This document shows, in pieces, positions 3,001-6,000 of a stretch of DNA of 64,000 nucleotides. The first letter of the stretch is position 1. Each line of letters starts with the position of its first letter. The position numbers were made by a program. This stretch comes from Escherichia coli. GTDB lineage: Bacteria; Pseudomonadota; Gammaproteobacteria; Enterobacterales; Enterobacteriaceae. Location: NCBI RefSeq assembly GCF_016026235.1, contig NZ_CP065613.1; one strand, given 5' to 3'.

Positions 3001-6000
3001 CACGTTCAGCGATGAAGCGCCATTGTGCTCCCAGCAGGTTAATGCAGTAGTGGTCATCGCCCTGAGATTCCGCGTGGAAAACCTGCTCATACTCCATCTC
3101 AGACAACATTTTTGCCACCAGCCGACGGTTAACAAAATCCCAGTCCTTGTGATTCATTACAGACCGACCTCCGTGAAGAAGTGATGACGATCCGCCATCA
3201 CCATGCGCGAGCGCTTATGTGGGAAGTCGAACTCTTTAATTGTCCGGTATCCCGCAGGCTCAAGATGGCGGAACAGGCGCTGGTTATCGGTGCGTGGCTC
3301 CAGTACTGTGCGCTGCGTACGGGGCTCATCCAGCAGCAGGTAATGTGTCAGCCCGCGCAGCCAGCTTTGCACATAGTGGGCCCCGCGCCATTGCTGTTCA
3401 CCAACCAGCAGATGCAGGCCACGGTCAAAGGGCTGCCACGAATAGTGACGACCAATGCGGTCTTCCGCCGCCCAGTAGATTTCGAAATAGCTGAATGGCC
3501 GATCGTCGAAGCACCCAATCAGCGGGAATGCATGTTTACCGGTGAGCTGGCGCTCCAGATAGGCGGTCTGTACCTCCAGTGAGCCACTTTGCTCCCAGAA
3601 ATACTCAACGCGCGGATCATTCATCCAGCGGGTGAAACGTTCTGCATCAGAAACGGGATCGGCAATGCGGAAACTCAGCATCCTGCGAATACGTGGATCG
3701 TAACGGCGGTAAACCTCACCCTGTGGACGGGGTGGGCGCTGCGGGAAATAAATCTCACGCTCTGCATCAAAAACCATTTCACCGGAGGCCCGGTTTGCCG
3801 GTGAACTCAACCTGCCAGAAGGCAGTACGATGGATAATGTCGCTTTTTACCTGCCCAAAAAGCGTCAGCGCCTGTGGCTCCTCACGCCATTCGGCCCAGG
3901 GGAGAGCCACTGCTGACAGTTGTGGTGCGGCGATAAATATCTGATCCAGCGCATCGCACAGCCACCCTGTCGGCAGCTCCCCGGGACAGTGCAACACCGC
4001 GCTATTGTCCAGTCCCCAGCCAAGATTCAGGGGCTTGTCGAGTTTTTCACAGCGCAGTCCATATCTGCTGTGAATAATGTTTGCCTCAGACATTCAGACC
4101 TCCTGAGCCTGCAGCGGGTTAGCGAAATCGAAATAGATCACCGAAGGGTCAACAATGGTGTTCTCGTTATGATCGTTCAGATAACAGAAAAAGTTACCTT
4201 TTACGTTCCAGTACGGACTTTCCAGCACGTAGTTGAGACAGGTTTTATGAGTCACCTGATCACGCACTTCAGCCAGCGATGCTCGTACACGAGCCATCAG
4301 ATTCGATTCGCTGTCCAGCCCGGCAGCCCCCAGCGCAGCGGTCACAGCAAAAGTGGAGTTAACCAGCAGGTAATAAGGGAAATAGCGCAGCAACTGCTCA
4401 TGGGTGAAAATATTTTCCGCCTGCGCCTCGCCAATAGAATCGAGCCAGTCTGTCGCGTGAGGCATAAAAGCGCTGCCCTGACAGTCACGGTAAATAAATC
4501 CGACCGGCAGATCCCCAAGCATCTGGACAAGAATATTTTGCTGATGCGCCAGCAGCACCAGGCCGTAATCCGCTTCAGCCGTAAACAGCGGCTTTAGCAC
4601 TTGCTGACAGTATGCATCGACCCATGCATGGGCGGCCTGTTGCACAGTGATACCGAGGCGATCGCTCAGGCGTTTTACCGCCGAAACCAGCAGCGAATCA
4701 CCGCCATCAGGTGCGGCCTGAGTCAGGGAGACCAGTACGTTAGTCTGGCTTTTCGGCTGATCCACCAGCAGATTTTCACGCAGGGCAAACAGACTTTCCT
4801 GCATGATGTTGCCGTTAAGATCGAGCAGCCCGGCCCAGCCATCCTCCTGCATTACCCGGAAAGTCGGGAAGCGGACCTGTAGCATCTGCCAGCCGTCGGT
4901 TTGAGCCAGGCGTGCCAGGCGCATCCCACGCTTCACTTCTTTCACGGACAGAGTACGGATGGAGTTGGTCAGCCGTACGCTCAGGGAGAACTTGATCATA
5001 TCGCGGCTGGTGGCACAGTAGAGGGAACGGGAAGAGGTGGTCGGCAGCCACGACGTGCCGGCCTCACCTAAGTCTTTAATCAGCCCTTTAGCAACAAGTG
5101 CCTGGCACCACCCCTGCTGCAAAAGATATTCCCCCTGCCACGGGTGCAACGGGAACAGCCATTGGTTGTCACTTAATTCGTTGAGTAACTGAGGCGCATT
5201 CTCTGCGGCAAATCGCGTCAGCCGCTGTTGAAGGTTGAGATGCAAACTTTCACCGGCGATTTGCGTTTTATCCACCGAAAACCACCGCAGTGGGAAGTGG
5301 GGTGCCATATCAGGCAGGTAGCGTTCAGCCTCCCGCCTGTTAAACGGTTCATGAGACTTAGGCGCAGGGTGGAAAGCGTGTCCTGTCAGCAGCGCCTGCT
5401 CAGCCTCGCCAAAATTCAACGCTTTTTCACGCAGAGCGGCCCAGTCATGACGGGCATCAATTGCCTGTTGCGTATGGACATGGCTTTCCAGCACGCGCTG
5501 GTGGAAAGTTTCGCAGAGGGGAACGGGCAGAAACAGTTGATGGCGTAGCTTATCAATAATAAGCCGGGAGAGAGTGGTAAAGTCGACAGGATAACTACCT
5601 GATGCCGTGACCAGACGTGCAGGAAATGCAAAGCGGTGATGCTGGGTTGGGGAGAAATAAGCCACTCTGAAATGGAGCGATTTCTGCTCATCCAGCGGGA
5701 TGAGCAATTCGTCTGGCGGGTATTCTGTCAGTTTCCAGTCTGTGGTTTCACGAATCAGTGCATTCAGGAAGCACTGCGCAGCCACATCTGTGGCTGGTTT
5801 TTCAGAGGGCAGGGTCATAGTCAAACAGCTCCCACACAGTAAAATAATAACAATTATGTTGATAATGATTCTCATTATCAACATAATTGTTATTGTCAGA
5901 TAAATTAATTTTACAAATAAACACAATTAATACATGGAGTTGAAACATTATAATGTCACCAGGGATCGAAGATACGCCCCAAAAAACACTGTCCTGCTGG

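What the first reader, a model, noticed from the sequence alone, without database searches (positions are those of the whole stretch)
5846..5894. Perfect 22-bp-arm palindrome centred on the Fur box between divergent iucA and shiF
ATAACAATTATGTTGATAATGA (5847-5868) and TCATTATCAACATAATTGTTAT (5872-5893) are exact reverse complements around a 3-nt TTC core, and the Fur-box match GATAATGATTCTCATTATC sits exactly at the centre. A symmetric operator this long could serve both divergent promoters or bind extended Fur oligomers. The pColV-K30 aerobactin promoter as I remember it is less symmetric, so this may be an island-specific operator architecture.
Basis: seen in the sequence. Interest (0 to 1): 0.4.

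Follow-up and report, generated by a model that had tools for sequence, protein, structure and literature searches.

The report
Perfect-palindrome allele of aerobactin Fur operator
The classical iron-repressor (Fur) binding site in front of the aerobactin siderophore genes has, in one enteroinvasive E. coli lineage, become a perfect 49-bp palindrome, most likely through copy-the-other-arm replication errors; this is a tidy natural variant of a well-known operator, not a new system.

Summary
Window 5846-5868 and 5872-5894 are perfect 23-nt reverse complements around TTC, centred on the 19-bp Fur box (5861-5879). It is the only long inverted repeat in the 64 kb.

The sequence is the well-known aerobactin P1 promoter/Fur operator between iucA (minus strand, 4094-5818) and shiF (plus strand, 5953-7146). 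Published work already describes shiF and iucA as sharing one Fur box.

The perfect symmetry, however, is not universal:
- It is absent from all 1,838 E. coli records and 825 plasmid records that carry this intergenic region.
- It is absent from 100,044 species-representative genomes and from 241 million metagenome records.
- I found it in six other assemblies of one clade, including EIEC O143:H26 strain 4608-58.

Relatives form an allele series, and every step increases symmetry. E. coli and S. flexneri 2a carry type 0, S. sonnei and others type 1, a S. sonnei-clade subgroup type 2, and this clade type 3. C>T at 5860 arose twice. The last step is a 1-nt deletion plus A>T within 6 nt that exactly copies the other arm, which is the signature of quasipalindrome template-switch mutation.

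Predicted, untested consequences:
- The Fur box matches the consensus at 18/19 instead of 17/19.
- iucA P1 loses its TG extended -10.
- A mirror-image promoter (TTGATA-17-CATAAT) now faces shiF.

This is a new variant of a known kind, of modest interest.

The parts
5846..5894 (.). Perfect 49-bp palindrome: 23-nt arms at 5846-5868 and 5872-5894, with spacer TTC at 5869-5871.
   Evidence: Predicted DNA hairpin energy is -20.8 kcal/mol, against -8.9 for the E. coli type 0 allele.
5861..5879 (-). Core 19-bp Fur box. On the iucA strand it reads GATAATGAGAATCATTATC (18/19 to consensus). It contains the HinfI site GAATC (plus strand GATTC, 5867-5871) that is used in published Fur protection assays.
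   Evidence: PMC10318462 describes the HinfI protection assay on the iuc promoter. PMC3788343 places two Fur sites over the -35 and -10 of iucA P1.
5853..5881 (-). iucA promoter P1: -35 TTGATA (5881-5876), 17-nt spacer, -10 CATAAT (5858-5853). The TG extended -10 present in E. coli and ColV alleles is lost here (TG>CA).
   Evidence: for the window (no TG). for type 0 and ColV (TG = yes). for type 2 (no TG).
5859..5887 (+). Mirror-image promoter-like site facing shiF: -35 TTGATA (5859-5864), 17-nt spacer, -10 CATAAT (5882-5887). It is present only in the perfect-palindrome allele.
   Evidence: It is absent from the plus strand of type 0, ColV and type 2 alleles. This is a consensus match only; no TSS data exist.
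5860..5861 (.). Derived substitutions in the iucA-proximal arm. Plus-strand CA (E. coli, S. flexneri 2a) became CG (type 1) and then TG (types 2 and 3). C>T at 5860 arose independently in two clades.
5882..5888 (.). Derived complex change in the shiF-proximal arm: CAAC-AATAAA-TG became CAAC-ATAAT-TG. One A was deleted after 5882 and A>T occurred at 5887. The new sequence is exactly the reverse complement of the other arm.
   Evidence: No allele with only one of the two changes was seen in 32 related assemblies.
4094..5818 (-). iucA (aerobactin synthase, 574 aa), the first gene of iucABCD-iutA.
5953..7146 (+). shiF (MFS transporter, 397 aa), transcribed divergently from iucA.
   Evidence: PMC6918656 gives its function as an aerobactin secretion auxiliary.

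Best explanation
This is the Fur operator and core P1 promoter of the aerobactin operon, shared with the divergently transcribed shiF. The window carries a derived allele in which an ancestral quasi-palindrome has become perfectly symmetric.

How it works as an operator: when Fur is active under iron-replete conditions, it binds the central 19-bp box and neighbouring AT-rich repeats. This covers the -35 and -10 of iucA P1 and, through the same site, represses shiF. That behaviour is shown for orthologous loci.

How the symmetry arose is inferred. During replication the nascent strand folded back on the imperfect hairpin and copied the opposite arm (quasipalindrome template switching). At least two such events occurred on the branch leading to this clade: C>T at 5860, and a 1-nt deletion plus A>T at 5882-5887. 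An earlier A>G at 5861 is also symmetry-increasing.

Predicted, untested consequences:
1. The Fur box is one step closer to consensus (18/19, and 14/15 on the 7-1-7 motif).
2. The TG extended -10 of iucA P1 is lost.
3. A mirror-image TTGATA-17-CATAAT promoter now faces shiF. Two fully overlapping divergent promoters and one Fur site therefore occupy the same 49 bp.
For: Identity as the aerobactin operator:
- The alignment with ColV-type plasmids, E. coli chromosomal islands, E. fergusonii, E. albertii, Klebsiella and Cronobacter shows the same Fur-box core upstream of iucA, with a divergent MFS gene.
- P1 is predicted as TTGATA/17/CATAAT in all alleles.
- The literature places Fur sites over the -35 and -10 of P1 (PMC3788343) and reports a long footprint (PMC2189734). 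shiF shares the Fur box and is iron- and Fur-regulated (PMC3438092, PMC6918656; Fur ChIP-seq in CFT073, PMC7157518).

Derived and lineage-restricted:
- 0 of 1,838 E. coli and 0 of 825 plasmid records carry it.
- 0 hits in species-representative genomes and metagenomes.
- It is present in six assemblies of one clade sharing 5338T, 6942A and an IS3 insertion, including EIEC O143:H26 strain 4608-58.

Templated origin:
- The allele series type 0, 1, 2, 3 has DNA hairpin energies of -8.9, -10.2, -14.8 and -20.8 kcal/mol.
- Every change makes one arm the exact complement of the other.
- 5860 C>T is homoplastic, occurring in clade A and clade B.
- The last step is a deletion plus a substitution within 6 nt, with no intermediates observed.
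- Three ingroup events fall in 49 nt against about 10 in the other 7.1 kb. The expectation is 0.09 and Poisson P is about 1e-4.
- The branch to type 3 has no other substitution in 7.1 kb.
- The mechanism is established in E. coli (PMC7202029), and IR expansion at promoters has been described in yeast (PMC13100816).

Not a by-product of operon decay: L038 has the palindrome together with intact iucABCD.
Against: - No experiment covers this allele. There is no Fur footprint, TSS map or reporter data.
- The shiF promoter has not been mapped in any allele, so the mirror promoter is only a consensus match.
- The Fur consensus is itself palindromic. The two inner substitutions (5860, 5861) are therefore equally well predicted by selection for better Fur binding, and mutation bias cannot be separated from selection for them.
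- One template-switch event cannot change both arms, so at least two events must be placed on one short branch.
- The sample of relatives (32 assemblies) was drawn through exact-protein look-ups and is not a random population sample.
- pColV-K30 itself (M10930) and the original footprint papers could not be read. The comparison uses ColV-type plasmids and my own recollection of the published sequence.
Confidence: 0.7

Rival explanations
1. Positive selection, not mutation bias, drove the symmetry. Invasive Shigella and EIEC lineages were selected for tighter Fur repression of aerobactin and/or stronger, co-regulated shiF expression. The palindrome is simply what an optimised dimer-binding operator with two divergent promoters looks like.
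For: 5860 C>T is parallel in two clades. Each inner change moves the site toward the Fur consensus: 17/19 to 18/19, and the 7-1-7 match from 12 to 13 to 14 of 15. The outer change creates a 10/12 promoter toward shiF. The palindrome arose while the operon was still intact. Outgroups (Klebsiella, E. fergusonii, E. albertii, Cronobacter) also have C at Fur-box position 19.
Against: The outer change is a deletion plus a substitution that reproduces the other arm base for base. Selection on two independent mutations predicts intermediates, and none was seen. The aerobactin locus decays repeatedly in these lineages: the iucB frameshift here, and split iucA, iucB, iucD or shiF in L016, L023, L040, L051 and L054. 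That argues against strong purifying or directional selection on its regulation. No phenotype data exist.
Confidence: 0.2
2. The hairpin acts at the RNA level. Transcripts that start upstream of the palindrome (the minor upstream iucA promoter, or read-through) fold into a 23-bp stem followed by UUAUUUUAC and are terminated or attenuated.
For: The scan flags terminator-like hairpins on the minus strand at 5893-5847. The RNA fold is -29.5 kcal/mol with z = -7.1, against -19.4 for type 0.
Against: The stem has only 3-4 G-C pairs and the U-run is interrupted. The element lies inside the main promoter, so P1 transcripts start at its edge and do not contain it. On the plus strand no T-run follows the stem. 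The sequence is explained by the Fur and promoter elements.
Confidence: 0.04
3. The perfect arm was imported by recombination from an unsampled aerobactin allele and was not generated in situ.
For: Aerobactin islands are mobile and mosaic, sitting at selC, pheU or pheV and flanked by IS elements (PMC7545054).
Against: No donor exists among 2,663 E. coli and plasmid records, 100,044 species genomes, or the metagenomes. The flanking 7.1 kb shows no co-imported substitutions on that branch. The new sequence equals the complement of the resident other arm.
Confidence: 0.04
4. The perfect palindrome is an assembly or sequencing artefact.
For: Palindromes can be mis-assembled in principle.
Against: The identical 49-mer occurs in six other assemblies from different projects and technologies. 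These are two chromosome-scale contigs (a 4.56-Mb contig of an assembly in the NCTC accession series and a 3.45-Mb contig), an Illumina draft of strain 4608-58, a Logan re-assembly of SRR1118464, and two further drafts. They carry lineage SNPs consistent with descent.
Confidence: 0.01

Closest known systems
Aerobactin promoter/Fur operator of pColV-K30 (iucA P1; de Lorenzo et al. 1987; Escolar et al. 2000)
   Same: The locus is orthologous. It has the same -35 TTGATA, 17-nt spacer, -10 CATAAT and central GATAATGAGAATCATTAT core, and the iucA-proximal flank CATAATTGTTATTATTTTAC is identical. Both have a divergent shiF.
   Different: ColV-type copies read ...CATTTCTCATTGATAATGAGAATCATTATTGACATAATTG... 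The upstream flank is not complementary to the downstream one. Fur-box position 19 is T (17/19), which gives a TGn extended -10. The window has C there (18/19), no TG, and an upstream flank rewritten to mirror the downstream one. The ColV-K30 sequence itself is recalled from memory and from ColV-type plasmids; it was not retrieved.
Divergent Fur-controlled promoter regions of E. coli K-12 (fepA-fes, fepB-entC, fepD-entS)
   Same: Two divergently transcribed iron-uptake transcription units are repressed through Fur sites in a short shared intergenic region.
   Different: In those regions the promoters and Fur sites are distinct or only partly overlapping, and the regions are not perfect palindromes. 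Here both predicted promoters and the Fur box are superimposed on one 49-bp symmetric element.
Quasipalindrome-associated template-switch mutation hotspots (Ripley 1982; thyA hotspot, Dutra and Lovett 2006; lacZ QP reporters, PMC7202029)
   Same: An imperfect inverted repeat becomes more perfect. The changes are exactly templated by the other arm, include a complex multi-base change, and one change recurs independently.
   Different: Those cases are laboratory mutation spectra in coding genes. This one is inferred from natural alleles of a regulatory site, and no replication-level evidence is available.
Inverted-repeat expansion at promoters by template switching in yeast (GRE2; PMC13100816)
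   Same: IR arms overlapping a transcription-factor binding site were homogenised or expanded, some events occurred independently several times, and the authors propose these events reshape regulation.
   Different: That is a eukaryotic system with other transcription factors. For GRE2 an expression effect was demonstrated, whereas here none has been measured.

Membership tests
Fur operator (E. coli-type Fur box) | Close match to the 19-bp consensus GATAATGATAATCATTATC, or to overlapping 7-1-7 motifs. | tested here: met
   18/19 on the iucA strand and 17/19 on the plus strand. The 7-1-7 matches are 14/15 and 13/15 on each strand.
Fur operator (E. coli-type Fur box) | The site overlaps the -35/-10 of the repressed promoter. 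| tested here: met
   The box at 5861-5879 lies between and overlaps the TTGATA and CATAAT of P1. PMC3788343 states the same for iucA P1. The promoter call is a consensus match, not a mapped TSS.
Fur operator (E. coli-type Fur box) | Orthology to a footprinted operator. | tested here: met
   The region aligns base for base with ColV-type plasmid and chromosomal iucA upstream regions. The footprinted record M10930 itself was not available.
Fur operator (E. coli-type Fur box) | Fur binding and iron-dependent repression of the flanking genes. | not testable with these tools
   Shown only for other alleles: CFT073 Fur ChIP-seq and RNA-seq including shiF (PMC7157518), and pS88 iron-depletion induction of iucA and shiF (PMC3438092).
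Quasipalindrome template-switch mutation | [quoted passage not shown] | tested here: met
   Type 0, 1 and 2 alleles fold at -8.9, -10.2 and -14.8 kcal/mol, with z between -4.3 and -6.7.
Quasipalindrome template-switch mutation | The mutant sequence equals the complement of the opposite arm, and complementarity increases. | tested here: met
   All four derived changes (5861, 5860, the deletion after 5882, and 5887) do so.
Quasipalindrome template-switch mutation | Clustered multi-base change in one event, and recurrence at the same site. | tested here: met
   The deletion and A>T lie within 6 nt, and no intermediate was seen in 32 assemblies. 5860 C>T occurred in two clades. That the clustered change was a single event is inferred, not observed.
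Quasipalindrome template-switch mutation | Dependence on replication or strand-switching. | not testable with these tools
   This needs reporter or mutation-rate assays.
Bidirectional Fur-regulated promoter region | Both divergent promoters are overlapped by the Fur-bound region. | tested here: inconclusive
   This holds for iucA P1. For shiF, a promoter-like site overlapping the box exists only in this allele, and the native shiF TSS is unmapped. No shiF or iucA entry was found in the supplements of the S. flexneri M90T TSS study.
Intrinsic terminator | A G+C-rich stem followed by an uninterrupted U-tract downstream of a transcription unit. | tested here: not met
   The stem has 3-4 G-C pairs in the 20 pairs counted by the scan, and the tail is UUAUUUUAC. 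It lies inside the promoter.

The most novel reading that the evidence does not exclude
A natural, stepwise and partly parallel symmetrisation of a classical repressor operator by template-switch mutagenesis. It has built a perfectly symmetric Fur/RNA-polymerase switch in an invasive E. coli lineage: two mirror-image, fully overlapping divergent promoters share one repressor site. Mutation bias, not selection, would then have created a new shiF promoter and re-tuned aerobactin control.
Probability: 0.3. Interest if true: 0.55.

Novelty: new variant of a known kind. Interest (0 to 1): 0.35.

Why it matters
The aerobactin promoter is the textbook Fur operator and a standard reagent for Fur binding assays. 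A set of natural alleles differing by one to four bases, from quasi-palindrome to perfect palindrome, is a ready-made series for three questions:
- How operator symmetry and flanking repeats affect Fur affinity and oligomerisation.
- Whether an extended -10 can be traded against repressor affinity.
- Whether template-switch mutation can create a second, mirror-image promoter.

It also gives a field example, in Shigella and EIEC genomes, of quasipalindrome mutagenesis acting on a regulatory site, including one recurrent change. It does not reveal a new kind of system, and the strain in the window probably cannot make aerobactin because iucB is frameshifted.

Tried and rejected
1. Same palindrome in all aerobactin loci: rejected.
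2. Symmetrisation as a neutral consequence of operon death after the iucB frameshift: rejected, because L038 has the palindrome with intact iucA, iucB, iucC and iucD.
3. One template-switch event explaining all changes: rejected. The donors lie in opposite arms, and types 1 and 2 exist as separate alleles.
4. Using the trend ColV > O104 > O25b > SCU-172 > window in right-arm similarity as extra evidence: rejected. It is confounded with phylogenetic distance.
5. The plus-strand TTAATA/16/TATAAT at 5927-5954 as the shiF promoter: set aside. Its -10 overlaps the annotated ATG and it is not conserved in Klebsiella.
6. Reading the primary papers (de Lorenzo 1987, Escolar 1999 and 2000): not held.
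7. A literal sequence search of the literature found nothing relevant.
8. TSS data for shiF or iucA in the S. flexneri M90T supplements: none.
9. The exact 49-mer in species-representative genomes and metagenomes: no hits.
10. The degenerate pattern in genome contigs returned only three mis-binned MAG contigs with ordinary alleles.
11. No tRNA gene marks the island border within the window.
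Full report
**1. The observation**

The sequence at 5846-5894 reads AATAACAATTATGTTGATAATGA-TTC-TCATTATCAACATAATTGTTATT. The 19-bp Fur-box match (5861-5879) is centred on the same base (5870). No other inverted repeat with arms of at least 18 nt exists in the 64 kb. The chance expectation is about 1e-8, and 2,000 shuffles of the AT-rich intergenic region never gave arms longer than 12 nt. The feature is real and not accidental.

**2. What the region is**

iucA runs on the minus strand from the ATG at 5818, and shiF (an MFS transporter) runs on the plus strand from 5953. 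The wider context is as follows:
- iutA'-iucDCBA lies on one side, and shiF, IS remnants and an Ag43 autotransporter on the other.
- Beyond these come the chromosomal gsp type II secretion genes, sslE/yghJ and glcB.
- This is an aerobactin island of the SHI-2/SHI-3 'PAI iuc/iut' family, which is known to sit at selC, pheU or pheV (PMC7545054).

On the iucA strand the palindrome contains -35 TTGATA, a 17-nt spacer and -10 CATAAT. The same promoter is predicted in every relative examined. The literature places two Fur sites over the -35 and -10 of iucA P1 (PMC3788343) and describes an exceptionally long Fur footprint there (PMC2189734). The central GAATC is the HinfI site used in Fur protection assays (PMC10318462). 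shiF is already reported to share this Fur box in pS88 and SHI-2 and to be induced by iron depletion (PMC3438092, PMC6918656). [quoted passage not shown] The element is therefore the classical aerobactin operator/promoter, and its service to both genes is not new.

**3. The perfect symmetry is not the general state**

The intergenic region occurs in 1,838 records of complete E. coli genomes and in 825 plasmid records. None carries the perfect palindrome, and the best match is 95.6% over 90 nt. The exact 49-mer is also absent from one genome per species of 100,044 species and from 241 million metagenome records.

I reached Shigella and EIEC genomes through exact-protein look-ups. This gave 32 assemblies whose sampled iucA-shiF sequences (about 2.7 to 7.1 kb per locus) differ from the window at only a handful of positions. 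They carry four alleles, written here on the plus strand:

| Allele | Left-arm core | Right-arm outer part | Assemblies | Named examples |
|---|---|---|---|---|
| Type 0 | GTCAATAATGA | CAACAATAAATGTTATT | 4 | E. coli SCU-172 (a RefSeq record, not among the 32 assemblies); S. flexneri 2a ATCC 29903 |
| Type 1 | GTCGATAATGA | as type 0 | 16 | S. sonnei 2015C-3794; S. flexneri 6 FDAARGOS_714; three clades in all |
| Type 2 | GTTGATAATGA | as type 0 | 6 | a subgroup of the S. sonnei clade |
| Type 3 | GTTGATAATGA | CAAC-ATAATTGTTATT | 6, plus the window | EIEC O143:H26 strain 4608-58 |

The type 3 assemblies share 5338T, 6942A and an IS3 insertion downstream of shiF. The window therefore most likely comes from this enteroinvasive E. 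coli lineage.

**4. How the symmetry arose**

With SCU-172 as outgroup, a 7.1-kb alignment resolves three clades:
- Clade A: the type 3 genomes plus L040, which keeps type 1.
- Clade B: the S. sonnei group, with types 1 and 2.
- A third clade carrying type 1.

C>T at 5860 therefore happened twice. On the branch leading to type 3 the only nucleotide changes in 7.1 kb are three, all inside the palindrome.

Across the ingroup, 3 events fall in 49 nt against about 10 in the remaining 7.1 kb. The expectation is 0.09 and Poisson P is about 1e-4. Every change converts a mismatch or bulge of the hairpin into a pair. Predicted DNA hairpin stability rises from -8.9 to -10.2, -14.8 and -20.8 kcal/mol.

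The last step replaces AATAAA with ATAAT, a deletion and a substitution within 6 nt. This is exactly what copying the opposite arm would produce, and no single-change intermediate was seen. That is the defining signature of quasipalindrome template-switch mutation, a mechanism established in E. coli (PMC7202029). Analogous inverted-repeat expansions at yeast promoters were described recently (PMC13100816).

Three alternatives are excluded or unsupported:
- Assembly artefact is excluded by six independent assemblies.
- Recombination has no known donor.
- Relaxed selection after operon death is excluded, because L038 carries the palindrome with an intact iucABCD. The 11-bp iucB frameshift in the window is a later event, found on only 14 contigs of the collection.

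**5. Selection as a rival**

The Fur consensus is itself palindromic, so the two inner substitutions also raise the match to the consensus. The 19-mer match goes from 17/19 to 18/19, and the 7-1-7 match from 12 to 13 to 14 of 15. Deeper outgroups (Klebsiella, E. fergusonii, E. albertii, Cronobacter) also have C at Fur-box position 19. Selection for tighter repression therefore cannot be separated from mutation bias for those two positions. I give selection as the primary driver about 0.2. The main counter-arguments are the complex outer change and the frequent decay of aerobactin genes in these lineages.

**6. Predicted consequences (inferred, untested)**

- E. coli and ColV alleles have TGnCATAAT, an extended -10, for iucA P1. 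Types 1-3 have lost the TG.
- Only type 3 has a plus-strand TTGATA/17/CATAAT (5859-5887) facing shiF, a mirror image of P1. Types 0-2 have TCAATA, TCGATA or TTGATA combined with CAATAA.
- In type 3 the two promoter-like sites overlap completely, so each -10 abuts the other's -35. RNA polymerase binding in the two directions should be mutually exclusive, and a single Fur array should block both.
- The shiF-side arm now duplicates, in inverted orientation, the iucA-side flank. In my recollection, that flank is the secondary Fur site on ColV-K30.
- An RNA-level role for the hairpin is unlikely. The stem is AT-rich, the U-run is interrupted, and the element lies inside the promoter.

**7. Verdict**

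The new element is the allele series and its likely origin by templated mutation. Novelty is a new variant of a known kind, and interest is modest at 0.35. The most novel reading not excluded is that mutation bias built a symmetric two-promoter, one-repressor switch. I give that a probability of about 0.3, and it would deserve an interest of about 0.55.

Noticed in passing
window 3157-4093 (minus strand), deletion at about 3811/3812: iucB carries an 11-bp deletion (GTTACCGTTAT on the coding strand) relative to E. coli SCU-172. It splits the gene into 104-aa and 206/217-aa ORFs, so aerobactin synthesis is probably dead in this strain. The 104-aa fragment occurs on only 14 contigs of the public collection. 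The palindrome predates the deletion.
   Followed up: yes
L016, L023, L029, L040, L051, L054 (relatives of window 1-7146): The aerobactin locus has decayed repeatedly and independently in Shigella, EIEC and E. coli relatives. iucA is split or has an internal stop in L016, L051 and SCU-172. iucB is split in L023, iucD is frameshifted in L040, and shiF is split in L054.
   Followed up: partly
window 5853-5861 and the equivalent positions in L001 and L006: E. coli chromosomal and ColV alleles of iucA P1 have a TGn extended -10 (TGACATAAT). All Shigella and EIEC alleles (types 1-3) have lost it (CG or CA). This is a possible promoter-down change shared by the invasive lineages.
   Followed up: partly
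window 5779-5796 (plus strand): A conserved G+C-rich hairpin followed by GTTTTT (CAGCCACATCTGTGGCTG GTTTTTCAGA) lies inside the 5' end of iucA, antisense to it and just upstream of the operator. It looks like a terminator for transcription running antisense through iucA toward shiF. It is also present in SCU-172 and in a ColV plasmid.
   Followed up: no
window 5927-5954 (plus strand): A promoter-like TTAATA/16/TATAAT has a -10 that overlaps the annotated shiF ATG (TATAATG). It is present in all E. coli-type alleles but not in Klebsiella. Either it is fortuitous or the shiF start or TSS annotation deserves checking.
   Followed up: no
window 7096-9046: An IS4/Tn5-like transposase remnant overlaps the 3' end of shiF by about 50 nt on the opposite strand, in the position where the literature describes shiG overlapping shiF (not checked). 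It is itself truncated by an IS3-family insertion. That insertion junction is a marker shared by all perfect-palindrome genomes.
   Followed up: partly
L047, L048, L049 (genome-contig hits): Three MAGs labelled Bacillota bacterium or Collinsella sp. contain contigs with the E. coli aerobactin iucA-shiF intergenic region. These are almost certainly mis-binned Enterobacteriaceae contigs.
   Followed up: no
window 22028-25303, 38880-43656, 46279-50856, 53362-55533: The island is followed by an Ag43-family autotransporter, then an intact-looking gsp type II secretion cluster (GspF, GspD), the SslE/YghJ metalloprotease and glcB. No tRNA gene was found anywhere in the window, so the island's usual tRNA (pheV-type) border is missing or lies outside it.
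   Followed up: partly
L040 7343-13194: In the closest relative that keeps the type 1 operator, shiF is followed by IS1 and then dcuS-dcuR-dcuB-fumB. In my recollection, that neighbourhood lies next to the site reported for SHI-3 of S. boydii (pheU: PMC7545054). The same island clade therefore sits at different chromosomal sites in close relatives.
   Followed up: no
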